Below are positions 975 through 60,147 of a stretch of 64,000 nt of DNA, piece by piece (position 1 is the first letter of the stretch; every line of letters begins with the position of its first letter). The DNA comes from Collinsella sp. (GTDB taxonomy: Bacteria > Actinomycetota > Coriobacteriia > Coriobacteriales > Coriobacteriaceae): NCBI GenBank assembly GCA_052281595.1, contig DAWBRY010000004.1, positions 67,854 through 131,853 of the forward strand. Reading direction: 5' to 3'. The notes under the pieces are model-generated. The model saw nothing but the letters and a program-made list of their open reading frames with translations. It was not told where the DNA came from and did not search any database. The position numbers were made by a program, and so were the translations under genes.

Positions 975-998
975 CGCTTCCCGTTCGGGAACAAGCGT
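975..998 (+). terminator. Hairpin terminator with the conserved TTCCCGTTCGGGAA loop. The same loop recurs at 6757, 8650, 10873, 13250, 14277 and 18130.
   Basis: Inverted repeat gcgcttcccgttcgggaacaagcg directly after the stop codon. Confidence 0.4.
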
Positions 999-1086
999 TC
1001 ACATGACAGCGGCCCGACCCTATCATCAGGGCAATATCCACTCCGCCGCCGCTTCTCCGCGGCGGCTCCCCTTAAGGAGCTGCGCC

Positions 1087-6323: not shown

Positions 6324-6337
6324 GGAGATTGGTCTAT

Positions 6338-6751: not shown

Positions 6752-6859
6752 GGGGTTCCCGTTCGGGAACCTTACGGGCCGCCGGACCGCATCGCGGGAC
6801 GGCGGCCCTACCATTTCGGGTATAAGAGTGCCGGCTTTCACGAATTGGAGCGCATCGAT

Positions 6860-8562: not shown

Positions 8563-8772
8563 CGAATTGGCTTGCGTCGGCGTGATATTTGGCCCGGGGC
8601 CCTTTTCGGGTCCGGGGCCTTTTGCGTTCAAGGCCTCGACAGGCCTGTCGATTTCCCGTTCGGGAAAGAGGGTGCGTGGCCATGACTGTTGGCGATTTGG
8701 TCGGGTACTATCGGTCTATAGCGGTGACCGGACCAGTCCCGTGCCTTCGTTTCCAACCGAAAGGACTTCGCC

Positions 8773-9708
8773 ATGGATCTCTTCATGCCCGCGGAACGCG
8801 TCCTCTACGACCGGGCCTACTACCTCTCCGATGAGGCGGAGAGAGACTACGCCTTCGAGGTCGCCGAGGAGCACGGGATCGACGTGGGCGAAGTGCTGTA
8901 CTCCGACGAGCTCATGAAGGAGGTCCGCGATGCGCTCGACAGGGACATCGACCTCTATCTCGACGACGAGATCGCCAACTTCGATTCCATGCTCCGCGAG
9001 CTGAAGCGCGGCGAGAACCCGGAGCACCCGGCTGAGATCTCCGTGGTCGCCATGGGGTCGGTCGGGCGCTGGGACGGTCCCTCCCGCGGCCTCGTCGCGG
9101 CCAACTCGCTGCGCGACCTCATCGACGGGAAGGGCAGCGCGGACGCCCTCGTGGATTGCCGGATCGACCGACTCGTCGACACGAACGGCACGTTCAGCAT
9201 CGAGGCGTCCCACCATGACGGCACCGCCTACCTGGACGTGCGGCTCATCTCCGGGGTATCGTTCGATGGCAAGGGGTTCAGACTCGGAGGCGAGCTCTAT
9301 GCTCCCGGCAAGATGGACCTAGATGATTTCCATATCCTCCTCGGCAACCTCTACGATGCGCCCGGTGTCGGGCCGTGCTCGCTGCCGCATTTCGCGGAGC
9401 GCGCCTACGGCGCGGCGCAGCAGTCGTACCGCTTCGGGGAGACTGTGTTCGATATCTACTGTGAAACCGGCGGCACAGACAGGCCCTATAAGGTCATGGT
9501 CTCGGCGGGAGAGACTGTCGGCAAGGATGCGGGAACCCGTTTCGCCTCCGTCGAAGAGGCGAAAGCGTGGTGCTATCGGTACTCCATGCGCGAGCTCGCC
9601 GACAAGGAGAAGAAGCCCGTCCCGGGCGAGGCCGCCTCGGCCGCGAAGAAGGCCGCCGGGTGTTCCGGCGGGGACGGCGCCGGGGATGCCGGCGCGATCA
9701 AGCTGTAA
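8773..9708 (+). CDS. Array cargo protein with the conserved C-terminal tail.
   Basis: 311-aa ORF. The tail is …ASAAKKAAGCSGGDGAGDAGAIKL. Confidence 0.65.
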   Translation: MDLFMPAERVLYDRAYYLSDEAERDYAFEVAEEHGIDVGEVLYSDELMKEVRDALDRDIDLYLDDEIANFDSMLRELKRGENPEHPAEISVVAMGSVGRWDGPSRGLVAANSLRDLIDGKGSADALVDCRIDRLVDTNGTFSIEASHHDGTAYLDVRLISGVSFDGKGFRLGGELYAPGKMDLDDFHILLGNLYDAPGVGPCSLPHFAERAYGAAQQSYRFGETVFDIYCETGGTDRPYKVMVSAGETVGKDAGTRFASVEEAKAWCYRYSMRELADKEKKPVPGEAASAAKKAAGCSGGDGAGDAGAIKL

Positions 9709-9731
9709 GGCGCGTTTGAAAGGATACGGAC

Positions 9732-10850
9732 ATGGCCGAGAAATACGAGCTCGACAGGTGGGCGGCGGTCGTCTGCAACGGCTTCACCGCCGTCAACGTG
9801 ATGTCTTCCGGCAACGTCGAGGAGTTGGGCTGGGACTATACCGAAATGGAGCTCGACCCCACCGGGACCTGCGGGCTCTTCGACGGCATGCTGCTCGACT
9901 GGGACGACGACACGCCCGCGGAGCGCCGCGACCATGAGGCGTACTTCCCCGACGCGTTCACGGTGGGAGCGCGCATCCTGGCCGACGACTGGGACCACGA
10001 GCTCGGCAACGACGAGGTGCGTTCGCGCTGTTTTGCCATCATCGAGGACGCTGATCAGTTCACCGACCACGACACCGCCCGCGACTGGCTCTGCGAGAGC
10101 ACGATGGCGGACTTTTCCGAGGTCGAGGCGAGGACGTTCTTCCAGAACCTTACGCTCATGGACTCCGAGGAGATCGCGAAGCTGGACGGGCGTCCGATCA
10201 TCCCGTCCGCAGGAGCCGATGAGTGCCGCGCGGCGGTGCTCGCCTTCAACGAGAGGATGGTCCCGCGCCGCCGCGAACTCGGGCTCGGCGACACGGCCGT
10301 GGTCGGCAAGACAAAGAAGTCGGAGGCAACGTCGAAGGTCGTCCCTATGAAAAAAGAGCAGACGGTCCACGGGCTCGGTAGGGTCGATTTCTCCGGCCTC
10401 GGCTACGGTTGGGGGACGAATTATCCCGACTCGCTTTCCGTCGATGCGATCGGCATCAACCCCCCGTCGGGCGAGCGGTACGTCATCCTGAACTTCTCCC
10501 CCATCACGCATGCCCCCGATGTGGACGGCAGGAAGCTCTTCTGCCATGAGACGACCATCGGGTATGACCTCAACGCCGATTCCTGGTCCGGCGCCACCAT
10601 CGGACCGGACTTCTGGGCCCTCGACGGCAAGGAGGCCCGTGAGTTCGCGGAGAAGATCGGGCTCGACCGCCTGGCGGCGCGCGCGTGCGTCAGGCTCGGC
10701 ATCGAAGCGCCGGGGCTCACGGGCCGCGAAGCGCTCCCGATCCCCAAGGGCGTGAATGTCGCACCCCAACCCAGCGCGCAGGCCGAGGCCGCGAAGGCCG
10801 CGGCGACCAAGATGGTGTCCGGCGAGACCGGCGGCGGGAAGCATATCTAG
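9732..10850 (+). CDS. Array cargo protein with the conserved C-terminal tail.
   Basis: 372 aa. RBS GGATACGGAC…ATG. The tail is …AEAAKAAATKMVSGETGGGKHI. Confidence 0.65.
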   Translation: MAEKYELDRWAAVVCNGFTAVNVMSSGNVEELGWDYTEMELDPTGTCGLFDGMLLDWDDDTPAERRDHEAYFPDAFTVGARILADDWDHELGNDEVRSRCFAIIEDADQFTDHDTARDWLCESTMADFSEVEARTFFQNLTLMDSEEIAKLDGRPIIPSAGADECRAAVLAFNERMVPRRRELGLGDTAVVGKTKKSEATSKVVPMKKEQTVHGLGRVDFSGLGYGWGTNYPDSLSVDAIGINPPSGERYVILNFSPITHAPDVDGRKLFCHETTIGYDLNADSWSGATIGPDFWALDGKEAREFAEKIGLDRLAARACVRLGIEAPGLTGREALPIPKGVNVAPQPSAQAEAAKAAATKMVSGETGGGKHI

Positions 10851-10966
10851 GGTTTACTTTACCGGTTGCAGCCCTTCCCATTCGGGAAGGGCTGTTTTCG
10901 TGCCGGGGTGTTGTGGGTAGCATCTTCTCTGATTCTGACCGGCTTTCGTTTTGGAGCTGATGATCT

Positions 10967-11788
10967 GTGGACGATGAGAAGTTCGACCTCAACTCGAGGA
11001 TCTGGGTTTGGTTCAATAGCGTGCTCTCCTATGACAACATCATCGCGCACGATTTCCTCAATGAGATCGACGGCTGCGCCACGTTCGCAGACGTCATCAT
11101 CGGCCTCGCCGATCGGTGCTCCCTTTCCGATTTCCTCGGCGACACGCTCATCGGTTCCAGCTCGCTCCTCTCCAAGATCGCCGACCTGTGCGATGTCGAC
11201 CTGGATACCGCGCTCGGCCTCTGGGAATATGCGAGCGGCGAGGATATCGACCAGTTTGACAAGGAAGGCATCCTGCATATGATTGACGCCGCGAAGAAGG
11301 CCGAAGGGATTGAACCGTATGTATCCCAGGCCGGGCCAAATGGCGGTGTGGACGATGGCGAGGACCTGCGTGCAGGCGGACCGGTTTCCGAGGGCGACCC
11401 GTGGCGCGACGGCATGGTCGCACAGGTCGCTGGGCTCATGGAGCAGGTCGTTGACCTGGACGCCAAGGCAGCCGCCGGCGCCGATACCGTGCTTGCCGAG
11501 TTGTTCGAGCCCCTGGCGAACAATTCCACCGATGCCGCAATCGAACTCTTCGGGGTCTATTCGAGGTCTGACGCAAGCGGACGCTCGGCTATCGCCGAGG
11601 TTTTCCACGCCCTGACCGGCGAGACCTTCGATTCGTTCCTCATGGAGGCCTCGCGGACGTGCGAGGAGACGCTTGAGGCTTATCGGGGCAACAGCTTGCC
11701 CGGCCCTGATGCAATGGCCGCGGCGGCTAAGAAGGCGGCCGGGGCTAAGGTTTCGGCTGGTGTGGATGGCGGCGGGAAGCATATCTAG
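10967..11788 (+). CDS. Array cargo protein (GTG start) with the conserved C-terminal tail.
   Basis: Preceded by the intergenic cassette (hairpin, gggtagcatc, ttggagctg). The tail is …AAAAKKAAGAKVSAGVDGGGKHI. Its 3' ~48 nt are identical to the 3' end of ORF 11819. Confidence 0.6.
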   Translation: MDDEKFDLNSRIWVWFNSVLSYDNIIAHDFLNEIDGCATFADVIIGLADRCSLSDFLGDTLIGSSSLLSKIADLCDVDLDTALGLWEYASGEDIDQFDKEGILHMIDAAKKAEGIEPYVSQAGPNGGVDDGEDLRAGGPVSEGDPWRDGMVAQVAGLMEQVVDLDAKAAAGADTVLAELFEPLANNSTDAAIELFGVYSRSDASGRSAIAEVFHALTGETFDSFLMEASRTCEETLEAYRGNSLPGPDAMAAAAKKAAGAKVSAGVDGGGKHI

Positions 11789-11818
11789 AGCGGTTTGCCT
11801 TATCTGCTTTTAATTTAA

Positions 11819-13222
11819 TTGATTGGATGGTTCATCATGGACAGCCTCGTTGACGACAACTTCTCCGAGATCAGAAAAACCTTCACCGATCCCCTGTATA
11901 ACGCCATGGGTCTCCATGTGGACATGGGGGCTTCTTTTCACGATTACGGCACCCGCGACGATTACGGTATCGGTTGCTGTGCGACGCTTGACGGCGTGAC
12001 GCATTACGCGAAGGCCTGGCCCATCGAGGACCATGATAGCCGGTGGGGTGCCTGCATGGGCTCCTTTACGTTCGATGAGAGCCTTGCGGGAAACGGCGTC
12101 GACTACGTCAGCCCCGACTCACTCGCCAAGATCATGGGCGATTACGGTTACCACGACTCGCGATCTTTCCTGGACTGCAATCTCGACGTTTGGAGCGACG
12201 AGCTTGTCGGTATTCTCGGGTACGAGGCGTTCGGAAGCAGCCAATCCGAAGCCCTCGTGCTGTCCCCACTTGCCGATAAGGAATCCGTGTTGCAACTCTT
12301 CTATACCTTCTCGGAGAAGGCCGACGGCCTGATCAGTGACGAACTGTTCAACACCCTATATTGGGAAATGGAAGCCGAGGAACGCTTTGCCCATGCAAGG
12401 CCCATCGAGGCAGTCGATATCGATTTCGATAGGGCCCGCGACATCGCATCGAGTTGCCTGCATCGTCAAATCGAGCTTAAAGACGATATATCCTTCCGCC
12501 TTGCCCTGGATATCCTTCCCAAACTCAACTGGGATGGACCTTCCATCGCCATCGATGCGCTTAACTATCTCGCAGATACGCAGGAATTCGGTATCGAAGC
12601 CCTGAGAAGCCATGCAACCGAGCTCTTCGGCTCCTGTCAGGCCTCTGTCGCCTTGGACCAGGCGGGCTACATCATCTATTCCTACAGCGAGCCCGATGCC
12701 GTCACCAAGATGGATGATATCTTCTATCCATCAATCTATTCGTTGCCAGACAGCGGTGATTTGATCGGCTCTTGCATCGACGCCCTGTACGACCCTTATA
12801 TTCCCGAGGTCGAGGAGGCTATGAAAGATGTGCGTGAACGCAGGAAGAACCCCATGGCGCGCTATGGCTCTACGCCACTCGACGCGGTCAATGTCACGGT
12901 AACCCCCGCTTTGATTTTCTTCAAGAACGATCCGTCTGTTTCCCAGCGCGTGTATTTCTGCGATAAGTGCTCATCAGACCTCAATATCGGCGAAAAGATC
13001 TTCTCCTGCGGATATACCGCCGATGAGTTGCGCGGGATGATCGGAAAGAAGACCGACGAGAACTTCGTCGTCGTAGCCGTCGATGATCCATTTAAGGTGA
13101 GGGCCACCTATCTGAACCTCACCCAGAAGATACCCAGTCCAGCAGAGATTGCCGCGTCGGCAAAGAAAGCTGCCGGGGCTAAGGTTTCGGCTGGTGTGGA
13201 TGGCGGCGGGAAGCGTATCTAG
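11819..13222 (+). CDS. Array cargo protein, mosaic. It shares the 'VDIDF…SIAIDA.N.L…LEA.RSHATELF..CQ' domain with ORF 13349, and carries the conserved tail.
   Basis: 467-aa ORF. The tail is …AASAKKAAGAKVSAGVDGGGKRI. Confidence 0.6.
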   Translation: MIGWFIMDSLVDDNFSEIRKTFTDPLYNAMGLHVDMGASFHDYGTRDDYGIGCCATLDGVTHYAKAWPIEDHDSRWGACMGSFTFDESLAGNGVDYVSPDSLAKIMGDYGYHDSRSFLDCNLDVWSDELVGILGYEAFGSSQSEALVLSPLADKESVLQLFYTFSEKADGLISDELFNTLYWEMEAEERFAHARPIEAVDIDFDRARDIASSCLHRQIELKDDISFRLALDILPKLNWDGPSIAIDALNYLADTQEFGIEALRSHATELFGSCQASVALDQAGYIIYSYSEPDAVTKMDDIFYPSIYSLPDSGDLIGSCIDALYDPYIPEVEEAMKDVRERRKNPMARYGSTPLDAVNVTVTPALIFFKNDPSVSQRVYFCDKCSSDLNIGEKIFSCGYTADELRGMIGKKTDENFVVVAVDDPFKVRATYLNLTQKIPSPAEIAASAKKAAGAKVSAGVDGGGKRI

Positions 13223-13348
13223 AGCTGTTTGTTCTCAATGTCGATTGATGGCAGCCCTTTCCTTTTGGGAAGGGCCGTTTTCGTTGCCGGGCAGGGCGGG
13301 TAGCATCTTCTGTGTATCTGGCTGACTTGTTTTTGGAGCTGATGGTTT

Positions 13349-14242
13349 ATGGCGGCGAAACAATACGAACTCGGTTCGAATGTCCTCGATTGGTATAGGG
13401 ATTTCTGCCCGGGGAACAGCTTCCAGGTGGTGATTCGTCCCGATATCACGTTCGCAGACGTCGTCGTGGGCATGGCGAACGGTGTCGATTTGAACAACCT
13501 TATCGGTTCCGATAGCGAGATCTTCGGCAACATCGTGGTCGCGAAATTGGCCGAGATCACCGGAGAGAGCTACGAGACCGTTTCAAATGTCTGGCATGAG
13601 GCGCCGATGAATAGCGATTACATCGGCGAGGACGAGCGGCGCCTCATTGAGGCCGCCAAGCTCGTGATCGAACCCAGATCTAGGCGAATTACCACTGTCG
13701 ATATCGATTTCGGCAAGGCCTTCAGCATCGCAAATCACGCTATGCTGAACGAGATCATGCCATCCTTTGACGACCCTGCTCTCTACGGTATCGCTGAGAG
13801 AGTCCTACCAAATCTCGAGTGGCGCACCGATTCTATTGCTATCGATGCCATCAATGAGCTCTGTTGCGATCGCTACGCCGAGCACTATGACCTCGAGGCC
13901 GTTCGGAGCCATGCCACCGAACTGTTCGCAGCCTGCCAGGTCCAGTTGGCGTTCATACAGGCGGACCTCGTTTTTCAAGCGCTCGACTGGACGATTCCGG
14001 CGACGGATAGGGTTCGTTTCGGATCCGTCTATACCTCGGATCCGTATTCACGTCGTTACATCTCGACTTGTTGCCTTGGTGCATTTAGCCACCCTCGTTT
14101 TACCGTCGCCAGAGAGGCCGTTGCCGATATCGAGAAGCGAAGCAATGCCAAGAACAGCCCAACTAACATAGTTGCGGCGGCCAAGAAGGCGGCCGGCGCC
14201 GACGTGTCGGCCGATGGGGCCGGCAGCGGCAAGCATATCTAG
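13349..14242 (+). CDS. Array cargo protein, mosaic. Its N-terminus resembles ORFs 10967 and 14370, and its middle resembles ORF 11819. It carries the conserved tail.
   Basis: RBS GGAGCTG 9 nt upstream. The tail is …AAAKKAAGADVSADGAGSGKHI, with diverged nucleotides but conserved amino acids. Confidence 0.65.
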   Translation: MAAKQYELGSNVLDWYRDFCPGNSFQVVIRPDITFADVVVGMANGVDLNNLIGSDSEIFGNIVVAKLAEITGESYETVSNVWHEAPMNSDYIGEDERRLIEAAKLVIEPRSRRITTVDIDFGKAFSIANHAMLNEIMPSFDDPALYGIAERVLPNLEWRTDSIAIDAINELCCDRYAEHYDLEAVRSHATELFAACQVQLAFIQADLVFQALDWTIPATDRVRFGSVYTSDPYSRRYISTCCLGAFSHPRFTVAREAVADIEKRSNAKNSPTNIVAAAKKAAGADVSADGAGSGKHI

Positions 14243-14369
14243 CGCCTTCTTAGTTTTGCCGCGGTCAGATGGCGGCCCTTCCCGTTCGGGAAGGGCCGTT
14301 CTCGTTAATGGGCGATGCGGGTAGCATCTTCGATGTATCTGGCCGACCCTCTTTATTGGAGCTGGCGAA

Positions 14370-15590
14370 ATGAGCAAGAAGCATTTCAATTTCAAGTCTA
14401 GTATCCGCGATTGGTATATCCGGGCCTTTCCATCCGATGAGCTCGGTTACAGGATCAACCCGCTCGCCACCTTTGCCGGCGCCGTGAAATGCATGGCGGA
14501 CGGAGGCGACATCTATAAGTATCTCGGCGTCGGGGACTCCCTGGTGCGCGAGAACGTATTCTCCAAGATCGCCGCCATCACGGGCGTGGATTACGATGCC
14601 GTATACGGCCTTTGGCTTCATCATGACGAAGACGAGTGCAGCAGACTGGTCTTCCTCGGCGACCATCCGGACTGCGCCGTAGATCGCGACTGGCGGGAGC
14701 AGTTCGATGAGGTGGTCTCCCCTTCCGAGCAAGTGCGCTATGACGAGATGCTTGCAGCCGAAGAGCAGCGCAAGGCCGAGACGTTCGATTCGTTCATGGA
14801 GGTCAACGAGACTCCCATGGACGAGGTGCGAAGCGCCGGGATCGCGATGGTTCTCATGCAGGGCATCGTTTTCGCGGAGATCGCCAAGAAGATCGATGGG
14901 CCAAGCGAGGAGCTGAACGAACGCATCGCGACCTTCAACCACGACCTCAAGCGCCTCTACAACGAACCGCTCCACAAGAAGGTGGAACAAATCGAGAACC
15001 AGGTCGGAAAGCTGGAGGAGAAGGCGGCCATATACGACGAGATGCGCTATACCGCCGAGCATACCGATCCGGCGGATATCCGAATCGCAGAGGGCAGCAC
15101 CAGCATGACCGGCGCATTGATGGCCGCCGCGATGGCGAGCTACGACCTGTCATGCGGTCTTATCGACGATGAGCACATCGGACGATACAGCGACGTCATC
15201 ACCGCCCTCGAGGAGCGCATGGGGGTCGGTGCCGGCGGACTCTCCGTCCAGACCGAGGCGGGCGAGCTCATCGCCAACGCCAAGGAGGACGGCATCAGCG
15301 TCGGCATCAACATCCCCGGCGGCAAATGCGCGGATATCGCCTTCGTCGATGCGGACCCGGGCGCCGACGACCTCTACCCGACACCCGTTCGCGCCTTCAC
15401 CTACAACGGCCGCGACGAGGAGCCCGATCACCGCACCGACGTGCATCTCGACGGGGACATGGTGCTCGATGGACAGATGACTGCCGAGACCCCCGCGCAT
15501 GTACCCGCCGATATCACCGCGGCTGCCAAGGAGGCCGCCGCCAAGAGCGTCAAGCCCGACACCGTCGGAACCGACGGCATCAAGCACTAG
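14370..15590 (+). CDS. Array cargo protein, mosaic. Its C-terminal domain 'AGEL.A…GISV.IN.P.GK…DDYPTPV..FTY.G.D.EP.HRTDVHLDGD' is shared with the N-terminus of ORF 17313. It carries the conserved tail.
   Basis: 406 aa. The tail is …TAAAKEAAAKSVKPDTVGTDGIKH. Confidence 0.65.
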   Translation: MSKKHFNFKSSIRDWYIRAFPSDELGYRINPLATFAGAVKCMADGGDIYKYLGVGDSLVRENVFSKIAAITGVDYDAVYGLWLHHDEDECSRLVFLGDHPDCAVDRDWREQFDEVVSPSEQVRYDEMLAAEEQRKAETFDSFMEVNETPMDEVRSAGIAMVLMQGIVFAEIAKKIDGPSEELNERIATFNHDLKRLYNEPLHKKVEQIENQVGKLEEKAAIYDEMRYTAEHTDPADIRIAEGSTSMTGALMAAAMASYDLSCGLIDDEHIGRYSDVITALEERMGVGAGGLSVQTEAGELIANAKEDGISVGINIPGGKCADIAFVDADPGADDLYPTPVRAFTYNGRDEEPDHRTDVHLDGDMVLDGQMTAETPAHVPADITAAAKEAAAKSVKPDTVGTDGIKH

Positions 15591-15605
15591 GCGGGAGGCA
15601 TAGCC

Positions 15606-16556
15606 ATGGAAGAGACCTATCAGCTCATCGAGGGGTCGCCGACGCTGCGCGACCTGGACGCGGAGAACGGCTTCCTCTGGTGCCCGTTCGGGCACTCGGG
15701 GCGCCAGAACGAGCCGGGTATCCTGATCAGCCGCCTCGATGACGGCAGCTACGACGTGAGGCTCGGGACCGGGTTCGACAGCCCCGAGCGCTTCGCGACC
15801 GGGGACCCCGATTGGTCCTGGATGGACTTGTCCGTGGCCTCCACCGTGGAGCTCACCTTCGCGGACGACATGGCGCTCAACGACTGGATCGCGAGCGAGA
15901 CGACCGCCACCGGCGCCGCATGGGCTCGATGCTTCAACCCCTATTGCGGTCCTGACGAGAAGACATTGAACACCTCTGAAATCATCGATACGCTTAGGCG
16001 CTTCGAGAGCCCTTCGTATATCGTGCGCGGGCCCATCGAGGATATCGAGAGCCTACCGGTCGGGTACTACTGGTGCCCGGATGCACTCGACCCCGACCCG
16101 TCCTATAACGGCTACCTGCTGAACGTGTTCGCCGGCTTTGACGGCCGTGGGCTCCCTGGCAAGTTCTTCGAGCTCTTCGGCGGGGTCACGCTGAACGACG
16201 TGCCCTCCTTCGGGTTCGACGACGGCTGGGACGGCTCGTGCCTCAACCGCCTCGACTGGTTCGAGGACGCTGCGGGCATGGACGCCGACGGGCTCTCCGC
16301 CGGGCTCGTGGCGAACGACGCCGAATCCATCAAGGCCCTCATCGGGAACTGCCCCGCCTGGATCGAGTGCTTCCCCTCGTACAGCGAGAAGGCCGCCAAG
16401 GGCGTCGACGATGCGGTCCAGGCCGTGAAGGCGTATCGATTGGAAGGCAAAAGGGTACACAGGGAGGTAATCCCCGGGTATCTCTATGAGACTGCGAAGG
16501 CCGCCGCGGCCAAGACCGCCGGCGGGGCCGATGGCGGCACCGGGCCCCATATCTAG
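15606..16556 (+). CDS. Array cargo protein with the conserved C-terminal tail.
   Basis: 316 aa. The tail is …AKAAAAKTAGGADGGTGPHI. Confidence 0.6.
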   Translation: MEETYQLIEGSPTLRDLDAENGFLWCPFGHSGRQNEPGILISRLDDGSYDVRLGTGFDSPERFATGDPDWSWMDLSVASTVELTFADDMALNDWIASETTATGAAWARCFNPYCGPDEKTLNTSEIIDTLRRFESPSYIVRGPIEDIESLPVGYYWCPDALDPDPSYNGYLLNVFAGFDGRGLPGKFFELFGGVTLNDVPSFGFDDGWDGSCLNRLDWFEDAAGMDADGLSAGLVANDAESIKALIGNCPAWIECFPSYSEKAAKGVDDAVQAVKAYRLEGKRVHREVIPGYLYETAKAAAAKTAGGADGGTGPHI

Positions 16557-16569
16557 GAAGGCGATCTGC

Positions 16570-17313
16570 ATGGACTACTTCTCCCGTAAACCTGACTTCC
16601 CCACCTTCGAGGATATCTATATCGCCCGCGCGCAGGGAGCCATCGAGCTCGAGCGGCGCGGCGACGAGGTCGCCTGCCGCTTCGGCCCGGACGGCCCCGC
16701 CTTCATGCTCCCCCAGGGCGCAACCCGGGGCGATATCATCCGGGGCTGCCTCGCCTGCGACGGCATCGTCGAGGTGTTGAAGGGCGATCCGGGGATCCGT
16801 GTCGCGTGTGCCGGGTGGCTGGACTCGTACTTCACCGAGGTCGCCGATCGGGCCCCCGTCGGGGAGACCTGCGGCGCCGACTGCCTTTTCGCATGCCATG
16901 TCGATATCGACGGCATCTACGCGGAGCGCACCGGGGACCCAGACGGGCTTCGCGCCTACTGCGACCCGATGGGGGTCGGCTGGAACTACGGCCCGATCTA
17001 CTACTTCCCGCGCGAGTCCATCGAGCAGGTGGTCGGGCAGCTGTGCGAGGACGGGGACGATTTCCCCGTCCTGTTTGACGGGGAGCGCGTGATCGAGGCT
17101 TTCGACGGCACGCCCGTTCACATGTCGGTGCCCGTCGAGGTCGACGGCGAGAAGGTGTGGACCTGCGGCTACGACTTCTGCTGGTGCGAGACCGTCGCGC
17201 CCGATTTCAGCCGCGCGCGGGGGCACTTCCCCGACGCGACCGTGGCCGCCTGGGCTGCCGCGCGGAACGTGAATCAATCTGATGGCGATTTGGGCCTCAA
17301 GGAGCGTATGTGA
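16570..17313 (+). CDS. Array member lacking the tail. It is Cys-rich (CxxC pairs).
   Basis: RBS GGAAGG before ATG 16570. Translationally coupled to the next gene (…ATGTGATG). It ends …DLGLKERM with no tail. Confidence 0.5.
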   Translation: MDYFSRKPDFPTFEDIYIARAQGAIELERRGDEVACRFGPDGPAFMLPQGATRGDIIRGCLACDGIVEVLKGDPGIRVACAGWLDSYFTEVADRAPVGETCGADCLFACHVDIDGIYAERTGDPDGLRAYCDPMGVGWNYGPIYYFPRESIEQVVGQLCEDGDDFPVLFDGERVIEAFDGTPVHMSVPVEVDGEKVWTCGYDFCWCETVAPDFSRARGHFPDATVAAWAAARNVNQSDGDLGLKERM

Positions 17314-18116
17314 TGAACGAGTCCATTTCCGTAATGACCGATGCCGGCGAGCTTGTCGCCACGCCGTTCGCAGGCGGCATCAGCGTCGATATCAACCTGC
17401 CCGACGGCAAGGGCAGCGGCCAGCTTGCGTTCATCGAAGCCGCACCGGAAGGGCTTCGCGATGACTACCCGACGCCTGTCCACGTGTTCACGTATGACGG
17501 GCTAGATTCGGAGCCGGTCCATCGCACGGACGTGCATCTCGACGGGGATGCCATGACGCTCGATCCCGTGAAGGGCGCGGCGGCACGCAATGGCGCCGAT
17601 ACGGGATATAGGCAGCTGGATTCCGATTTTGTCAACGCTTCCAACAGTTGGGATGAGGTATACGGGTTCATCAAACGTTCCGACCCCAATTCCACGGGTA
17701 TGCCCGCGAGTTTCGACTATGCCCTGCTCGCACTCGATTCCAACGGATGGCATTTCGGTGAATCGAATGCGAGCGCCTTTGATATCCCCGCCAAGGACCT
17801 CGATTTCTTCCTGGGTATCTTCTACTGCTCAAGCATTTCGGAATTTGCTGCGTATGCTTCTGAGTGCAACGAGCCCGATTTCCAGGAATGGCTCTGCTCG
17901 ATGTATCTCCGCGACCAGGTGGAAGACCGTCTCCGCCACGAAATATCTTGCAATTGCATACAATCGACCGTTGACGCCTTCAAACTGCTTTCCGATAAGA
18001 TCGGTTTCGAGTTCGAGCCTGAAAACAATCCCGCAAATGTCGCCAAGGCCGCCAGTGCGGCGGCAGTGCGTTCGGTCGGTTTCGGCTTGAGCGAGGCCGA
18101 GGGCATCAAACACTAG
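17313..18116 (+). CDS. Array cargo protein. Its N-terminal domain is shared with the C-terminus of ORF 14370. It carries the conserved tail.
   Basis: RBS AAGGAGCG 8 nt upstream. The tail is …AKAASAAAVRSVGFGLSEAEGIKH. Confidence 0.6.
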   Translation: MNESISVMTDAGELVATPFAGGISVDINLPDGKGSGQLAFIEAAPEGLRDDYPTPVHVFTYDGLDSEPVHRTDVHLDGDAMTLDPVKGAAARNGADTGYRQLDSDFVNASNSWDEVYGFIKRSDPNSTGMPASFDYALLALDSNGWHFGESNASAFDIPAKDLDFFLGIFYCSSISEFAAYASECNEPDFQEWLCSMYLRDQVEDRLRHEISCNCIQSTVDAFKLLSDKIGFEFEPENNPANVAKAASAAAVRSVGFGLSEAEGIKH

Positions 18117-18220
18117 GGTCTGGCATATGACGCCCCTTCCCGTTCGGGAAGGGGCGTTCTCGTGTGGGTCACCGGCGGGTAGCATCGATGGGGACAACCG
18201 TTTCCCTGGAGGTGCCGAAT

Positions 18221-19546
18221 ATGGCCGATATGAATGCAAGCGACAGCGCAATCTCTACCGATGACCTCGAGATCGACAGCTATGACGACGTCGTGAAGCT
18301 GCTCGGCGCCGACGATGCCGCCTCGATGCTCGCCGATGTCGCGGGCAACCGGTTCAACCGGGAGGATATCATGAGGGCCATCCTGAATGGCGAGGATATC
18401 CATCTCGATTACTGGCCCGATTACGAGGAGCTTGAGTGGGCGACTCGCGTCTGCGGCGAACTGCTCGCCGACACCTCGCTCGAATGGGCCGATGGTTTCA
18501 TCGACGCGGAGAAAATCGAGACGCACGAGGGGCTGACTGTCAGCGACCTTTCCCATGCCGTGGAATGCGTGCTGACGGATAAGTTCAACGACGGGCTCTA
18601 CGAGGCGAGCCTTGTGGACCGTACCGAAATCGCCGATACGCTCGCTCAGGAGATCAAATCGCGACTCGACGGCGGTAAGCTCGGCCATGGGCCCTATGTC
18701 GACAGCGAATCGCTGCGCGACGACCTGACCGAGCGGTTCGGGTTCTTCTACGATATCGATTTTAGCGGGCTCACCTTCAAGACCTCGCTCATACTGTCCG
18801 TCAAGAGCCTGTATTTCGAGGGTGACGTCGTCGATTCCGCGCTCGACTGGCAGGCGGATTACCTCCCGTGCGTCTGCCACAGGGGCGGCCAGGGTGAGAA
18901 CGATAGGTGGGAGTATGAGCCCACCGACGACTACAGGCCGTTCACGCGTCCCGCGGACATCCCCGAGAGCATCTTCGACAAGCTGTGCGCCTCGCAGGGC
19001 ACGACCATCGAGAAGGTCGTCAACGACCCCGTTACCAAGTTCGAGCGCAGCTTCCGCGAGGATATCTTCAACTCGCAGCAGAACTCGCTCGTCGGTCTCA
19101 CCGTCCTGGCAACCCTGCCTCTCGATGCGTTCCTGGACGCCAGCCTCTCGATGATCTGCCGCGGCGACCGCGAGAAGGCGGGAACGTTCACGGTCAAGCC
19201 CGGCACATACGAACCAATCATGGGCATCTACGACCCCATCAACGGGTGCGGCGGCACCGCGGGCATCGAACTCGACACGGACTTCGATATCGACCCGCGT
19301 GACATCAAGTACACGATGATGGAACCCAGGGGCGGGAAGTGGGAATCCGACCGCATCGATCTCTATACCCCGCAGGATTGCTTCGGGTTCTCCGAGCCCT
19401 TTGCCGGGCGTATCGAGTATTCCGAGAAGAAGCCCAAGATCGCCGCGAAGGCGAAGCCCGATCCCGCCGACCTCGGACGCCGCGCGAGTGTCGCGGCCGG
19501 TGCTACCATCCGCGACGGTGTCGATGGCGGCGGGATCAAACTGTAA
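18221..19546 (+). CDS. Array cargo protein with the conserved C-terminal tail.
   Basis: RBS GGAGGTG upstream of ATG 18221. Preceded by the intergenic cassette. The tail is …AAGATIRDGVDGGGIKL. Confidence 0.6.
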   Translation: MADMNASDSAISTDDLEIDSYDDVVKLLGADDAASMLADVAGNRFNREDIMRAILNGEDIHLDYWPDYEELEWATRVCGELLADTSLEWADGFIDAEKIETHEGLTVSDLSHAVECVLTDKFNDGLYEASLVDRTEIADTLAQEIKSRLDGGKLGHGPYVDSESLRDDLTERFGFFYDIDFSGLTFKTSLILSVKSLYFEGDVVDSALDWQADYLPCVCHRGGQGENDRWEYEPTDDYRPFTRPADIPESIFDKLCASQGTTIEKVVNDPVTKFERSFREDIFNSQQNSLVGLTVLATLPLDAFLDASLSMICRGDREKAGTFTVKPGTYEPIMGIYDPINGCGGTAGIELDTDFDIDPRDIKYTMMEPRGGKWESDRIDLYTPQDCFGFSEPFAGRIEYSEKKPKIAAKAKPDPADLGRRASVAAGATIRDGVDGGGIKL

Positions 19547-19556
19547 GGGGAACACC

Positions 19557-20258
19557 ATGGCCGACCGAGATGCCAAACGCAAGAGGCCCATCACTTGCCT
19601 GGAAACCGGGGTAACCTTTGAGTCCGCCTATCGGGCGGCCAAGGAGCTCGGCTTCGCCGACTCGCGCAACATCTTCCGCTCCATCCAGCGCGGCACCTGC
19701 ACCCAGGGGCTGCATTTCTACTACGCCGATGCGCCGAAACCGTCGCCGGGGTTCTTCCTGCCTCCCAACAGGCCACCGCGTCCGGTGGTATGCCTCGACA
19801 CCGGCGAGACGTTCGAGTCGGCATTCCAGGCGGGCCGCGCGTTCGGCATCGCCGCCGGGGCCGTGCGCACATCGGCCAGCACGGGCGTCGAACGCAACGG
19901 GCTCCACTTCTATTACGGCGACGAGCCGAAACCGGGCCCGGAGTTCTTCAGGGAACGACATTCGAAGACCAGGCCCATCGTCTGCCTGGAAACCGGCGAG
20001 ACCTTCGACGGCAACCCGGCCGCCGCGCGCCCCCTGCACGTATCGCCCGCGACCATCAGCCAGGCCGTTCGCTACGGAACGCCCGTCGCCGGGCTCCATT
20101 TCTACCATGGAGACGAACCGAAGCCGGCTCCGGAGTTCTTCAAGCCGATCAAGCCCGAACGCGGTAAGAGCCCTATGCAGATGGCTGCCGCGGCTAGGGC
20201 CGCCGCGGGGAACCCGGGTCGCCCGGACGGTGGCCAGCGGCCCCGACGCGCGGTATAA
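19557..20258 (+). CDS. Protein with three tandem ~55-aa repeats of a small DNA-binding-type module, resembling the C-terminal DNA-binding repeats of phage homing endonucleases.
   Basis: Three repeats: PITCLETGVTFESAYRAAKELG…GLHFYYADAPKP, PVVCLDTGETFESAFQAGRAFG…GLHFYYGDEPKP and PIVCLETGETFDGNPAAARPL…GLHFYHGDEPKP. RBS AAGGGGA. The tail is a variant: …AAAARAAAGNPGRPDGGQRPRRAV. Confidence 0.55.
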   Translation: MADRDAKRKRPITCLETGVTFESAYRAAKELGFADSRNIFRSIQRGTCTQGLHFYYADAPKPSPGFFLPPNRPPRPVVCLDTGETFESAFQAGRAFGIAAGAVRTSASTGVERNGLHFYYGDEPKPGPEFFRERHSKTRPIVCLETGETFDGNPAAARPLHVSPATISQAVRYGTPVAGLHFYHGDEPKPAPEFFKPIKPERGKSPMQMAAAARAAAGNPGRPDGGQRPRRAV

Positions 20259-20272: not shown

Positions 20273-20367
20273 AAGGCGCCCTCGGTTTCCGAGGGCGCCT
20301 TCTTGCGTCTTTTGGGAACGGTTTCAGTTTTCATGCGTAGGGCCCGCCGGTTTCCGGCGGGGCCTGC
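20273..20367 (+). terminator. Two consecutive GC hairpins with TTTCC loops that end the array transcript.
   Basis: ggcgccctcggtttccgagggcgcc and gggcccgccggtttccggcggggcc. Confidence 0.5.
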
Positions 20368-20517: not shown

Positions 20518-21057
20518 GTGAAAAGCGTCGAGGCGATCAAGATCCTACATAGCTGCGACCTGGAGGGGCGGATTCTTTTCCGCAGCCGCGAGCTGGGAAC
20601 CCTTTTCGGTGAGTCCGGCGATACGCTCCGCTCGACCATCAAGAGGCTCGCCGCAGACGGGATCCTCGAGCGTGTCGCCCATGACGCATACCTCTACCTT
20701 CTGTTCCATCCCAACGGCTGCGATGTGCTCGGCCATATCGCGACGTTCCTGCGCCCCGGCGAGGTCACCTACGAAAGCCTCGAGTCCGCGGCATCGCAGT
20801 GGGGCTTCATCTCGCAAATCCCGCTCGGGCGCATCTCCTGCGTGACCACGGGCGCAGAAGGCCTCGTCGATACCCGATTCGGTGCCATCGAGTTTATCCA
20901 CACGGACGATGACTCGAACGACGTCAAACGGGGAATACTCGACCGTATGCCGAGGAATCGGCTGCCGATCGCGACCGAGGAGCGCTGCCTGCACGACCTC
21001 GTCTCGAGGAAACGCAGCCTGGAGCTTATCGATTGGGATGAAGTGGATGTTGATTGA
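20518..21057 (+). CDS. abiEi: AbiEi-family antitoxin / transcriptional regulator (type IV TA, abortive infection).
   Basis: N-terminal wHTH-like segment LRSTIKRLAADGILERVAHDAYLY. Overlaps and precedes an AbiEii NTase gene. Confidence 0.65.
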   Translation: MKSVEAIKILHSCDLEGRILFRSRELGTLFGESGDTLRSTIKRLAADGILERVAHDAYLYLLFHPNGCDVLGHIATFLRPGEVTYESLESAASQWGFISQIPLGRISCVTTGAEGLVDTRFGAIEFIHTDDDSNDVKRGILDRMPRNRLPIATEERCLHDLVSRKRSLELIDWDEVDVD

Positions 21058-22033
21058 CCTTGAGGAGCTTGCGGGTAATATCGCCAGCAAAGTCAATGGC
21101 GCCCGGCTTACGCCCGTCATCGAAAAGGAAATCGTCCATTACGAAATTATCCGGTCTCTTGGGAGGAACGACCTGCTTCGAGACATCACCTTTCAAGGCG
21201 GAACTTCCCTCCGCCTCTGCTACGGATCGCTTCGATATAGCGAAGACCTCGATTTCGTCGCCGGCGACAAGTTCGATTCGCTTCCCCTGGATGATTTCTC
21301 CAAGACCCTGCGCTCCGATCTGCTCAAGTCCTACGATACCGAGGTGAGCGTCAGGGAGCCCAAGGTCGTCAATGATTTCGATGGCGTCGGGATGCGGAGA
21401 TGGACGGTGTCCGTTAATACCAACATCGCGCGCCCCGATTTGCCGAAACAGCGGATCAAGCTGGAGATCGCGTCCGTTCCGGCGCATACGTCCACGATTC
21501 GCCGGGTCGCGGTCAACTATCCCGAACTTGATGGAATGTATGACAACCTCACGATCCGGTGCCAGACGCTCGAGGAGATTCTGGCCGACAAGCTCATCTC
21601 ATTCTCCGCCACCGATACGCATATCAGGCATCGCGACCTCTGGGATATCCCCTGGATCGTCCGTGCGCAGGAGATCGACTTCTCTGCCGTAGCCGCGCTT
21701 GTAGCGGCGAAGCACGCCGACTACCGCTGCCCCGCCTCCCTTGCCAGCATGATCGCCGTCGGCATGCAACGCGCTCACGTCTGCTATGCCGACGGGTCAT
21801 TTACCGGACAGATGCAGCGTTTCCTATCCCCTGCCGTCTTGAACCGCACGCACGATTTCGATAATCACTGCGATGCCCTCAATACAATCGTTGAGAAGTG
21901 CTTCGGCCGCGTCGTAACCTCCCTCGGTATCTCAAATGATGTCGAGCGTGCCAGACGCAGGCTCGCGACCGAGATATCGTTGGGTTCTATTTCGGCTGCC
22001 GTGCTACCGAAAAGGACCTTGGGGCTTTCTTAA
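21038..22033 (+). CDS. abiEii: Nucleotidyltransferase AbiEii/AbiGii-family toxin.
   Basis: Family hallmark FQGGTSLRLCYGSLRYSEDLDF. Overlaps abiEi by ~20 nt (alternative start at 21047). Confidence 0.75.
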   Translation: MKWMLIDLEELAGNIASKVNGARLTPVIEKEIVHYEIIRSLGRNDLLRDITFQGGTSLRLCYGSLRYSEDLDFVAGDKFDSLPLDDFSKTLRSDLLKSYDTEVSVREPKVVNDFDGVGMRRWTVSVNTNIARPDLPKQRIKLEIASVPAHTSTIRRVAVNYPELDGMYDNLTIRCQTLEEILADKLISFSATDTHIRHRDLWDIPWIVRAQEIDFSAVAALVAAKHADYRCPASLASMIAVGMQRAHVCYADGSFTGQMQRFLSPAVLNRTHDFDNHCDALNTIVEKCFGRVVTSLGISNDVERARRRLATEISLGSISAAVLPKRTLGLS

Positions 22034-22129
22034 GGTAACAAATTAGGGGTATGTAAAATATGCGGTTGGAAGTTGGTAAATAACTGGTTGGTCAATCGTG
22101 ATTCAGGCCATCAATGTCCAATCACGTAT

Positions 22130-22290
22130 TTTACATACCCACTTCTTCTTGGCCATCCTGAAAGCCCCTCCCCGAGAGCGTTGCGCGCAGGAAGACATCC
22201 ACCCTTGTATCTTCGCCACATATGGAGTATCTTCGCCATATCATTTATATTTGGCGAAGATACAAGGAATGTGGCGAAGATACCCCATGG
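22130..22290 (+). promoter_or_regulatory. AT-rich operator/promoter with nested inverted repeats upstream of fic.
   Basis: tgtatcttcgccacatatggagtatcttcgccatatcatttatatttggcgaagatacaaggaatgtggcgaagatacc. This contains the arms TATCTTCGCCA/TGGCGAAGATA and ATCTTCGCCACAT/ATGTGGCGAAGAT. Confidence 0.5.
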
Positions 22291-23900: not shown

Positions 23901-23977
23901 CGGCGTAAACACGACTGTACAAGGCAAAGGGCGGCAAGCTGGTGCGTACCGACGCGCCTGAGTAGCGAGAGGACGGC

Positions 23978-59732: not shown

Positions 59733-59802
59733 CTTGAAACTCCATTCCGTTGCCGGGGCGCTTCAGGCCCGTGTGCGTACTCCCACAAGATGCTAACGCG
59801 GC

Positions 59803-60147
59803 CTAATGACGGGGCTGTTTGCGCGAGCCCGCGCTTTCCGAACGGGAAGCGCCGTCGGGCCGCACCGTCCGCAGGCGCCGCGCAAGCGCCCGGATCTCGA
59901 AGCACGCGTCGAAGCGGTGTGGCATCCCCTCGCCCGCCCAGAGCATCCCGGCGCGCCCGGTCGCGATCCGGTCGACGCGGGTGAAGTCCAGCCCCAGCAT
60001 ATCGCAGATGCCCCTCACCTCGTCATGGACCGGCGAGCAGGCGCACCGCATGGCGCCATCGCCCGAGACCTCGCCGTCGAGCCCGAGGCCGTACAGCTCG
60101 TCGCCGTAGAGCGCGGCGATGTGCTCCTCGGCCTCACCGGCGGACAT
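59803..60147 (-). CDS. Hypothetical protein.
   Basis: RBS GGAGAAG before ATG 60147. The upstream ORF extension is repeat sequence. Confidence 0.35.
   Translation of the reverse strand: MSAGEAEEHIAALYGDELYGLGLDGEVSGDGAMRCACSPVHDEVRGICDMLGLDFTRVDRIATGRAGMLWAGEGMPHRFDACFEIRALARRLRTVRPDGASRSESAGSRKQPRH

What the first reader, a model, noticed from the sequence alone, without database searches (positions are those of the whole stretch)
10860..18223. Reiterated intergenic cassette (terminator hairpin, GGGTAGCATC, TTGGAGCTG RBS) between array genes
Four intergenic regions (10862-10975, 13245-13351, 14270-14372 and 18128-18223) share the same ~100-bp unit. Each has a GC hairpin with the loop TTCCC[GA]TTCGGGAA, then GTT[TC]TCGT, a conserved GGGTAGCATC box that could act as a TANNNT-type -10 element, …[GT]ATCTGGC…, and TTGGAGCTG placing GGAG 8-10 nt before the start codon. 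The same hairpin loop also follows the genes ending at 968, 6751 and near 8650.

This is a cassette-like organisation in which each gene carries its own terminator, promoter and RBS module. It implies the array grew by duplication or recombination of whole gene-plus-cassette units. Other array genes are instead tightly coupled (9708/9732, 15590/15606, 16556/16570, 17313 ATGTGATG, 19546/19557), which defines sub-operons.
Basis: seen in the sequence. Interest (0 to 1): 0.5.

Follow-up and report, generated by a model that had tools for sequence, protein, structure and literature searches.

The report
Reiterated terminator–operator–promoter units in ICE array
A mobile element of human-gut Coriobacteriia splits a long same-strand array of orphan genes into sub-operons using a repeated ~100-bp spacer, whose key part is a 14-bp palindrome set 29 or 39 bases upstream of a promoter-like box; this is a fresh example of a familiar way mobile elements co-regulate gene batteries.

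Summary
Four spacers (10851-10966, 13223-13348, 14243-14369, 18117-18220) share the same parts: a GC hairpin, a GTTYTCG box, a variable spacer of exactly 17 nt, an invariant GGGTAGCATC, and a GGAG 8-10 nt before the start codon.

The hairpin apex TTCCCGTTCGGGAA is a conserved element in its own right. It occurs at about 14 different promoter contexts in this element family, including 59848(-) in the window. In every context a TANNNT hexamer lies 29 or 39 nt downstream (38 in one variant), although the sequence in between is unrelated. Some copies have no extended stem, so they cannot be terminators.

My best reading is a compound module. The palindrome is probably an operator for an unidentified regulator, placed upstream of a housekeeping-type promoter. 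In tight spacers its flanks pair to form the upstream operon's terminator.

Units head sub-operons, not single genes. Four of the six natural gene gains and losses I mapped have junctions in a conserved 3' coding tail; none lies in the units.

The units occur in Collinsella, Gordonibacter and Eggerthella. A distant array has the same layout with different sequences. The closest analogues are IncN CUP/ArdK and p576 Reg576 operators. No transcript data were available.

The parts
10868..10895 (+). Unit D hairpin (core TTCCCATTCGGGAA at 10875-10888, plus 7 flanking pairs), followed by a U-rich GUUUUCGU tail. It lies 18 nt after the stop of gene 9732-10850.
10895..10924 (+). Unit D promoter-like segment: TTTTCG (10895-10900), a 17-nt spacer, then GGGTAGCATC (10915-10924; TAGCAT at 10918-10923, d=29 from the core). 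GGAG at 10953-10956, GTG start at 10967.
13254..13275 (+). Unit E hairpin (core variant TTTCCTTTTGGGAA at 13258-13271, with one U.G wobble in the arm). This is the only one of the four units that passed the consensus terminator scan.
13278..13307 (+). Unit E promoter-like segment: TTTTCG, 17 nt, then GGGTAGCATC (13298-13307; d=29). GGAG at 13335-13338, ATG at 13349.
14271..14300 (+). Unit F hairpin (core at 14279-14292, plus 8 flanking pairs).
14299..14328 (+). Unit F promoter-like segment: TTCTCG, 17 nt, then GGGTAGCATC (14319-14328; d=29). GGAG at 14358-14361, ATG at 14370.
18129..18158 (+). Unit G hairpin (core at 18137-18150, plus 8 flanking pairs). Homology to the Gordonibacter, Eggerthella and other Collinsella versions starts at 18131, the 5' edge of the hairpin.
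18157..18186 (+). Unit G promoter-like segment: TTCTCG, 17 nt, then GGGTAGCATC (18177-18186; d=29). GGAG at 18208-18211, ATG at 18221.
978..1026 (+). Unit A: core at 978-991 with a bulged extended stem, then TTCACA (998-1003), 17 nt, TATCAT (1021-1026); d=29. It heads the sub-operon 1087-6751.
6756..6814 (+). Unit B: core at 6756-6769 (the stem includes the stop codon), a second conserved hairpin at about 6776-6807, and TACCAT at 6809-6814; d=39. No indels between core and -10 in 6 orthologues.
8653..8711 (+). Unit C: core only (8653-8666, no extended stem). A separate terminator-like hairpin lies upstream at about 8590-8625. GGGTACTAT is at 8703-8711 (d=39). The 36-nt interval is about 50% diverged between orthologues but never changes length.
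59790..59848 (-). Eighth copy, on the opposite strand: core TTCCCGTTCGGAAA (59848-59835) and TAGCAT (59795-59790), d=39. It lies upstream of gene 59732-58680, whose product also ends in a tail-like sequence.
11699..11797 (+). Conserved 3' tail-coding repeat (copies also at 13133-13231 and 14153-14251; 70-86% identical). This, not the intergenic unit, is the site of homologous recombination in natural variants.
20275..20299 (+). Ordinary terminator-like hairpin GGCGCCCTCGGTTTCCGAGGGCGCC closing the array. It has no core motif, which shows that generic terminators here look different.

Best explanation
Each unit is a compact boundary between two sub-operons of a same-strand array. The array is about 27 kb and holds at least 25 orphan genes. 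It sits on an integrative, mobilizable or conjugative element of gut Coriobacteriia; the window is closest to Collinsella aerofaciens.

Reading 5' to 3', a unit contains:
1. A GC-rich hairpin placed 15-40 nt after the upstream stop codon and followed by GUUYUCGU. I infer this is an intrinsic terminator.
2. A housekeeping-sigma-type promoter, TTYYYG-17 nt-TAGCAT, whose -35 overlaps the terminator tail. Inferred.
3. A leader of about 35-45 nt.
4. A GGAG ribosome-binding site. This is shown by position.

The apex of the hairpin is the 14-bp palindrome TTCCC-GTTC-GGGAA. It is a separate functional element. It sits 29 or 39 nt upstream of the -10 hexamer, centred near -48.5 or -58.5, one helical turn apart. 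This holds at every promoter of the element family that carries it, whether or not the flanks extend the stem. I infer it is the operator of a dimeric DNA-binding regulator that co-regulates the whole array as a regulon. I could not identify the regulator or tell whether it activates or represses. In tight spacers the same sequence has been recruited as the tip of the terminator.

What is shown: the anatomy, the conservation pattern, the spacing rule, the compensatory stem changes and the distribution. What is inferred: termination, initiation and protein binding.
For: Spacing rule:
- Among 18 non-redundant forward-orientation cores, 16 have TANNNT at d=29 or 39 and one at 38. In the reverse orientation or among degenerate matches the figure is 2 of 27 (Fisher p=3e-8).
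- The background chance of TANNNT at two given offsets is 0.0066.
- The sequence between core and hexamer is unrelated between unit types.
- Within orthologous sets it diverges by about 50% without a single indel, while indels do occur downstream.

Core independent of the terminator:
- Copies at 8653, L008:7496, L008:198 and L030:3516 have 0-1 extra pairs.
- Unit C has its own separate upstream terminator.

Hairpin where present:
- 98.8% paired, 3 pairs with double compensatory changes, 0 of 500 shuffles reach the observed value.
- MFE of the ~54-nt segment around each hairpin is -21 to -32 kcal/mol as RNA.

Promoter:
- The invariant columns are the core, GTT..GT, GGGTAGCATC and GGAG.TG, around a variable 17-nt spacer.
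- GGGTANNAT is enriched (10 against 3.1 expected). It is also found 35-60 nt upstream of the nikA-like gene and of an ORF at 33450(-), neither of which has a core.
- TTCACA-17-TATCAT in unit A passes a consensus scan.

Regulon:
- The core is confined to the array plus one other tail-bearing gene in 64 kb.
- The same units occur in Gordonibacter, Eggerthella and several Collinsella.
- A 50%-identical distant array (L034) has six copies of a different box, GCTACTTNYGTCCC, together with its own reiterated hairpin.

Precedent:
- Reg576 operators lie immediately upstream of the -35 of four establishment promoters (PMC6294495).
- CUP/ArdK sites in IncN plasmids (PMC6289460).
Against: - There are no transcript 5' or 3' end data, so initiation and termination are untested.
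- The -35 is weak. The generic scan found none of the four promoters and only one of the four terminators.
- The U-tract has only 4-5 U in 8.
- No regulator was identified, and the candidates are guesses.
- All copies share ancestry, so the statistics overstate independence.
- Every core lies downstream of a co-directional gene, so it is probably transcribed. Unit E keeps pairing through a U.G wobble. Both facts fit an RNA-level role.
- The loop orientation (GTTC on the coding strand) is always the same, which a symmetric DNA site does not require.
Confidence: 0.55

Rival explanations
1. RNA-level element. The conserved hairpin apex is recognised in the transcript, for example by an antiterminator or stability factor in the manner of a boxB/nut site, or it acts as a processing or 3'-protection signal. 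In that case the units are mainly regulated terminators or insulators.
For: - Every core is downstream of a co-directional gene.
- The orientation is strand-specific, with the loop always xTTx on the coding strand.
- Flanks with different sequences have evolved to extend the stem, with compensatory changes.
- A U.G wobble is tolerated in unit E.
Against: - The distance to the -10 hexamer is fixed at 29 or 39 nt, differing by one DNA helical turn and maintained through about 50% sequence divergence. An RNA hairpin does not predict this.
- Several copies form only a 5-bp stem.
- No Rfam family matches.
Confidence: 0.17
2. Plain duplication relic. The units look alike only because gene plus flank were duplicated in tandem. 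They are ordinary terminators and promoters with no shared regulator.
For: - Genes after units D, E and F are paralogous at their N-termini.
- D, E and F also share leader sequence.
Against: - The units are 75-83% identical in DNA, while the adjoining paralogous coding sequence is only 26-33% identical in protein.
- The core and its spacing recur in about 10 contexts with unrelated flanks and unrelated genes, including one on the opposite strand 40 kb away.
- The conserved-box, variable-spacer pattern indicates selection on the boxes.
Confidence: 0.12
3. Recombination sites. On this view the units are attC-like or oriT-like sites for cassette capture, or mobile REP/MITE-like palindromes spread by the nearby IS200-type Y1 transposase.
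For: - The organisation looks like cassettes.
- One homology breakpoint coincides with the 5' edge of hairpin G (18131).
- A Y1_Tnp gene lies at about 23445-23927(-).
Against: - Four of six mapped natural junctions lie in the 3' tail-coding repeats and none in a unit.
- The hairpin is 22-30 nt, not 57-141 nt, and has no GTTRRRY or RYYYAAC core sites.
- The units carry their own promoter-like boxes.
- No integrase was found among the ORFs scanned.
- Copies occur only inside the element, all in one orientation relative to genes, and no GTAG adjoins the stem.
- The ATCTGG box is not conserved in orthologues.
Confidence: 0.04
4. Single-stranded-DNA promoters or priming signals of the Frpo/ssi type, active on the incoming T-strand.
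For: - Same-strand arrays next to conjugation genes resemble anti-defence leading regions, which use Frpo (PMC11541004).
- ArdC and DUF3846 occur in the related L034 array.
Against: - Folded as ssDNA, only the short hairpin forms.
- The -35 and -10 boxes are not inside a long duplex-mimicking stem.
- Whether the array is in the leading region is undetermined.
Confidence: 0.03

Closest known systems
CUP (conserved upstream) elements and ArdK of IncN plasmids (pKM101/R46)
   Same: A reiterated upstream element carries a promoter and a regulator-binding site. It precedes several genes of a conjugative element's accessory or establishment region and forms a regulon (PMC6289460, citing Delver & Belogurov 1997).
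   Different: - Unrelated sequence and a different phylum (Proteobacteria rather than Coriobacteriia).
- The regulator is known there and unknown here.
- The operator here doubles as a terminator apex and obeys a 29/39-nt phasing rule.
- The genes here are orphans with a shared C-terminal tail.
Reg576 operators of Bacillus plasmid p576 establishment promoters
   Same: A short motif is repeated at four promoters clustered on a Gram-positive conjugative plasmid. It lies immediately upstream of the -35 and gives transient co-regulation of ardC and orphan genes (PMC6294495).
   Different: The p576 motif is a direct-repeat heptamer (TTATCCC x2) bound by a ribbon-helix-helix tetramer. The motif here is a 14-bp inverted repeat with no identified protein and with terminator overlap.
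Intrinsic terminator followed by an internal promoter in polycistronic arrays
   Same: A GC hairpin plus a U-rich tail after the stop codon, then a -35/-10 and a ribosome-binding site.
   Different: It does not explain why the hairpin apex is sequence-conserved across unrelated contexts, present without a stem, or phased to the -10.
Integron attC gene cassettes
   Same: An array of same-strand genes, each followed by an imperfect palindrome.
   Different: See the membership test. The size, the core sites, promoterless cassettes and an integrase are all lacking, and the rearrangements are homologous rather than site-specific.
Frpo/ssi single-strand promoters of plasmid leading regions
   Same: Reiterated structured intergenic elements heading same-strand batteries of anti-defence or orphan genes (PMC11541004).
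   Different: The promoter boxes here are not within the stem.

Membership tests
Intrinsic (factor-independent) terminator | Stable GC-rich stem-loop just downstream of a stop codon, on the coding strand | tested here: met
   Stems of 9-13 bp. MFE of the ~54-nt segment around each hairpin is -21 to -32 kcal/mol. Covariation supports the stem. Hairpins lie 15-40 nt after the stop codons. This holds for units D, E, F and G only.
Intrinsic (factor-independent) terminator | U-tract immediately 3' of the stem | tested here: inconclusive
   GUUYUCGU has 4-5 U in 8. Only unit E passed the consensus scan. From my own knowledge, Actinobacterial terminators often have poor U-tracts.
Intrinsic (factor-independent) terminator | Transcript 3' ends at the site | not testable with these tools
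   No Term-seq or RNA-seq data available.
Housekeeping-sigma promoter | -10 hexamer TANNNT with A2 and T6, conserved across orthologues | tested here: met
   TAGCAT, TATCAT, TACCAT and TACTAT are invariant within orthologous sets. GGGTANNAT is enriched, 10 against 3.1 expected.
Housekeeping-sigma promoter | -35 hexamer at 16-18 nt | tested here: inconclusive
   TTYYYG lies exactly 17 nt upstream in the d=29 units. There is a good TTCACA in unit A and no convincing -35 in the d=39 units.
Housekeeping-sigma promoter | Mapped transcription start | not testable with these tools
   No 5'-end data.
Operator-controlled regulon of a conjugative element (CUP/ArdK, Reg576 type) | The same short motif at a fixed position relative to several promoters of one element | tested here: met
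   About 14 unit types, d=29 or 39.
Operator-controlled regulon of a conjugative element (CUP/ArdK, Reg576 type) | Cognate regulator encoded on the element and binding the motif | not tested
   Only candidates were seen: the 3x NUMOD1-like protein at 19557-20258, an HTH_3 protein and an H2TH/mIHF-like protein upstream of the array, and the HTH at 42638-43081. None has the core upstream of its own gene.
Operator-controlled regulon of a conjugative element (CUP/ArdK, Reg576 type) | [quoted passage not shown] | tested here: inconclusive
   No family hits for any array protein in the window. ArdC and DUF3846 are present in the related L034 array. The direction of transfer relative to the relaxase (29633-31693, - strand) was not determined.
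Integron attC cassette array | attC of 57-141 bp with R''/L''/L'/R' and a GTTRRRY core, promoterless cassettes, and an adjacent intI | tested here: not met
   The hairpin is 22-30 nt. GTTYTCG does not fit GTTRRRY. The units carry promoter-like boxes. No integrase was found among the scanned ORFs. Rearrangement junctions lie in coding tails.
REP/BIME with a RAYT transposase | Many copies dispersed across the genome in both orientations, with GTAG adjoining the palindrome | tested here: not met
   Copies occur only in the element, in one orientation, with no adjoining GTAG.
Frpo/ssi ssDNA promoter | Long imperfect hairpin in which the -35 and -10 are base-paired | tested here: not met
   ssDNA folds show only the short hairpin, and the -10 is unpaired in the centroid structures.

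The most novel reading that the evidence does not exclude
The 14-bp palindrome marks a private regulon of a very common gut Coriobacteriia mobile element. At least nine promoters would drive about 25-30 fast-evolving, fold-orphan proteins. All of these end in the same ~25-residue tail, (D/S)P..AAAKKAAG...G.GKH(I/L). On this reading the tail is a shared export or translocation (or packaging) signal, and the array is a co-regulated battery of secreted or transferred effectors or anti-defence proteins. New members would be swapped in by homologous recombination between the conserved tail-coding 3' ends and the conserved units. The distant L034 array supports this, because it has a different tail and a different promoter box in the same layout.
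Probability: 0.2. Interest if true: 0.7.

Novelty: new member of a known kind. Interest (0 to 1): 0.4.

Why it matters
If the palindrome is an operator, it gives a handle on how a mobile element carried by many human-gut Collinsella, Eggerthella and Gordonibacter strains switches on a large battery of unknown proteins together. The exact 297-aa array protein is listed in 1363 blocks of the assembly index. The motif also gives a simple search key, core-N29/39-TANNNT, for finding the rest of the regulon and for fishing out its regulator. The finding corrects the recombination idea as well: the array is remodelled through its conserved 3' coding tails, not through the spacers.

Tried and rejected
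- Rfam, whole window: no family.
- Megablast of 9700-19600 against the plasmid and phage collections: no match.
- Pfam, PHROGs and NCBIfam on all array proteins: nothing usable.
- AlphaFold2 of the 441-aa protein (pLDDT 72.6, tail disordered) followed by Foldseek against the PDB: no match with E<1. The function of the array remains unknown.
- Literature search for the 14-mer: no relevant paper.
- HMM of the C-terminal tail against 1.84 billion representatives: only 32 hits, nearly all at the protein C-terminus. The tail is real but rare.
- attC, REP/RAYT and Frpo readings: rejected (see the membership test).
- The idea that the ATCTGG box is an IncP-like nick site: rejected because it is not conserved in orthologues.
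- An ECF-type reading in which GGGAAC is the -35: rejected because nothing is conserved 16-17 nt downstream of it.
- Leading versus lagging position of the array relative to the putative oriT near 32455-32490: could not be decided from sequence.
Full report
**1.

They share these parts in order:
- a GC hairpin with apex TTCCC[G/A/T]TT[C/T]GGGAA;
- a GTTYTCG box;
- a spacer of exactly 17 nt with variable sequence;
- an invariant GGGTAGCATC;
- a leader;
- GGAG 8-10 nt before the start codon.

The apex motif has seven exact copies on the + strand between 978 and 18150. With up to 2 mismatches there are 14 matches, against 1.06 expected from shuffles. GGGTAGCATC has five exact copies against about 0.14 expected.

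Minor corrections: the fourth start codon is at 18221. The ATCTGGC box is a feature of two units only and is not conserved in orthologues. Unit G (18128) shares only the segment from the hairpin to the -10 with the others.

**2. Context.**

The window is part of a mobile element. It carries:
- a MobA/VirD2-type relaxase (29633-31693, - strand) and a NikA-like protein (31695-32453, - strand);
- SSB and ParA genes;
- a replication-initiator-like HTH_36 protein with an IstB/DnaC-like ATPase;
- defence cargo: AbiEii, Fic and a pPIWI_RE module.

The array continues about 6.4 kb upstream of the window, through an SNF2/ResIII helicase to a first unit at L030:3516.

None of the array proteins matches Pfam, PHROGs or NCBIfam. 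A confident-enough model of the 441-aa protein has no PDB neighbour.

The element is common. The exact 297-aa protein is listed in 1363 blocks of the assembly index. The best DNA matches are Collinsella aerofaciens MAG contigs, at 95.9-99.4% identity.

**3. The units recur in related elements.**

A scan of one genome per species for core-N20-40-GGGTAGCAT returned 23 stretches. Eighteen are in Gordonibacter, Eggerthella and Collinsella, all with a 26-nt gap. The other five, in unrelated phyla, have other gap lengths and are chance hits. The Coriobacteriia loci are 80-90% identical versions of the same array, plus array segments that the window lacks (L008, L013, L028).

**4. The hairpin is selected.**

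On 14 units from four unit types and several genera, the 12-bp stem is 98.8% paired. Three pairs show double compensatory changes (GC/AU, GC/CG, CG/UA). No shuffle out of 500 reaches the observed covariation, and all slid registers collapse to 42-66% paired. The MFE of the ~54-nt RNA segment around each hairpin is -21 to -32 kcal/mol. With the stop codon 15-40 nt upstream and a partly U-rich tail, an intrinsic terminator is the natural reading for units D-G. The generic scan accepted only unit E.

**5. The apex is an element of its own, tied to the promoter.**

I collected every core-like site in the window and in 30 related loci and removed near-duplicates. Of the 18 forward-orientation sites, 16 have a TANNNT hexamer starting exactly 29 or 39 nt after the core. 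One has it at 38, and its orthologue has 39. The remaining site is the upstream member of a tandem pair. In the reverse orientation or among degenerate matches, only 2 of 27 do (Fisher p=3e-8; background 0.0066 for two offsets).

The unit types are:
- d=29: A (978), D, E, F, G, L008:198, L008:6137, L008:7496 and L031:3249;
- d=39: B (6756), C (8653), L008:2520, L030:3516/L035:94 and window 59848(-).

Between types the intervening sequence is unrelated. Within orthologous sets of units B and C it is up to about 50% diverged, yet it contains no indel. Indels do occur further downstream.

Several cores have no stem extension at all (8653, L008:7496, L008:198, L030:3516). Unit C has a separate terminator-like hairpin upstream. 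So the 14-mer is not conserved because it is a terminator. That is the behaviour of an operator or activator site, centred near -48.5 or -58.5.

**6. The -10 assignment.**

Across genera the invariant columns are the core, GTT..GT, the ten bases GGGTAGCATC and GGAG.TG. The 17-nt spacer and the leader vary. GGGTANNAT is enriched in the window (10 against 3.1 expected). Seven of the ten sites lie 35-60 nt upstream of a start codon in the right orientation. Two of these have no core: GGGTAGGAT before the nikA-like gene, and GGGTAGCAT before an ORF at 33450(-).

That pattern fits a general -10 region of the GnTAnnnT type. From my own knowledge, this matches what is described for high-GC Gram-positives. 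Here it is used with or without the palindrome.

Folding the units as single-stranded DNA gives only the short hairpin, with the -10 unpaired. They are therefore not Frpo-type promoters.

**7. How the array changes.**

Units head sub-operons of one to seven genes, not single genes. The genes after units D, E and F share an 82-residue N-terminal domain at only 26-33% identity. The units themselves are 75-83% identical in DNA. They are old duplicates held by selection on discrete boxes.

Natural variants show gene loss and gain:
- L001 lacks the 467-aa gene.
- L004 lacks the 273-aa and 467-aa genes.
- L032 lacks two blocks.

In all four of these cases the junction lies in the conserved tail-coding sequence at the 3' end of the genes, within 12-43 nt of shared identity, and never in a unit. 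Two further deletions are internal or illegitimate. A 3.3-kb AbiE-like insert in Gordonibacter sp. 28C ends exactly at the 5' edge of hairpin G.

**8. A distant relative keeps the layout but not the sequences.**

L034 is 50% identical in the 441-aa protein and has 55% GC. Its array includes ArdC and DUF3846 proteins. It has its own shared C-terminal tail (ESLDEMMEQKVEVAGDGEIGDEL.VSNGER). It also has its own reiterated ~245-bp spacer:
- a different hairpin;
- a run of 8-bp GTAGSNNN repeats;
- a box, GCTACTTNYGTCCC, present six times on one strand against 0.03 expected.

This argues that private promoter-proximal motifs, each presumably matched to its own regulator, are a general property of this kind of array.

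**9. Comparison with known systems.**

Functionally the nearest are two cases. One is the CUP elements bound by ArdK in IncN plasmids (PMC6289460). The other is the Reg576 operators placed just upstream of the -35 of four establishment promoters of p576 (PMC6294495). The present case differs in four ways: its sequence, its host phylum, the phased 29/39 rule, and the recruitment of the operator as the tip of a terminator.

Integron attC, REP/RAYT and Frpo memberships each fail on defining features (see the table). An RNA-level role for the apex, as a target for antitermination or stability control, remains a live rival. Every core is probably transcribed from upstream, its orientation is fixed, and a U.G wobble is tolerated.

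**10. Verdict.**

The feature is real and non-random. It misses the conserved, phased palindrome, and it is wrong about each gene having its own module and about the recombination hot spots. This is a new example of a known regulatory design, with no transcript or binding data yet. Interest is moderate.

Noticed in passing
window 858-20255 (3' ends of all array genes) and 58683-58790(-): 17 otherwise unrelated proteins end in the same ~25-residue tail: (D/S)P-x3-(I/A)A-x-AAK-x-AA ... G-x-G-(I)-K/R-H/K/L-(I/L). A profile of the tail finds only 32 representatives among 1.84 billion proteins, nearly all with the match at the extreme C-terminus. In the AlphaFold model the tail is low-confidence. 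It could be a shared export, translocation or packaging signal.
   Followed up: partly
L034:1-9814: A distant homologous array has a different shared C-terminal tail and a different reiterated ~245-bp spacer. The spacer holds a hairpin GGGACGTC..GACGTCCC, 5-7 tandem 8-bp GTAGSNNN repeats, and a GCTACTTNYGTCCC box present six times. The array carries ArdC (ArdcN+MPTase-PolyVal) and DUF3846 genes.
   Followed up: partly
window 11699-11797, 13133-13231, 14153-14251; 1942-1953/4611-4622; 10785-10812/16488-16515: Junctions of natural gene-content variants (L001, L004, L032) fall in the tail-coding 3' ends. The tail-coding repeats therefore act as the recombination substrates that remodel the array.
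   Followed up: yes
window 19557-20258: The last array gene encodes three tandem 64-residue repeats. Homologues at about 41% identity carry NUMOD1 / I-TevI DNA-binding / I-HmuI NUMOD-like domains, and in another element (L039) they sit next to an HTH protein and the relaxase. This makes it a possible DNA-binding backbone protein and a candidate regulator. It also carries the tail.
   Followed up: partly
window 33450-33560 (-) and 32455-32510 (-): GGGTAGCAT and GGGTAGGAT -10-like boxes occur without the 14-mer core, upstream of an ORF starting at 33450(-) and of the nikA-like gene. An inverted repeat AGTTGTAC..GTACAACT lies just before the nikA-like start and could be an operator or part of oriT.
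   Followed up: no
window 6860-7309 and 7114-8562: There are two overlapping ORFs where L002, L035 and L036 have one 603-aa gene. This is probably a frameshift or an allelic variant in the window copy.
   Followed up: no
window 46575-54696: A pPIWI_RE module (domain Z protein at 46575-50276; X/MID/RNaseH protein at 50065-52788) lies next to a PIF1/UvrD-like helicase (52852-54696, - strand). This is defence cargo on the same element, alongside AbiEii (20882-22033), Fic (22098-23330), an HNH protein (26570-26953, - strand) and a degenerate IS200-type Y1 transposase (about 23445-23927, - strand).
   Followed up: no
L021:471-3900 (Gordonibacter sp. 28C): A 3.3-kb insert with an AbiEi/AbiEii-like pair lies between a truncated 131-aa version of the 268-aa gene and hairpin G. 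The insert ends exactly at the 5' edge of the hairpin.
   Followed up: partly
window 6776-6807: A second hairpin, conserved and with compensatory changes (GGGCCGCC..GGCGGCCC), fills the interval between the core and the -10 in unit B. Its function is unknown; it could be a terminator or an attenuator.
   Followed up: no
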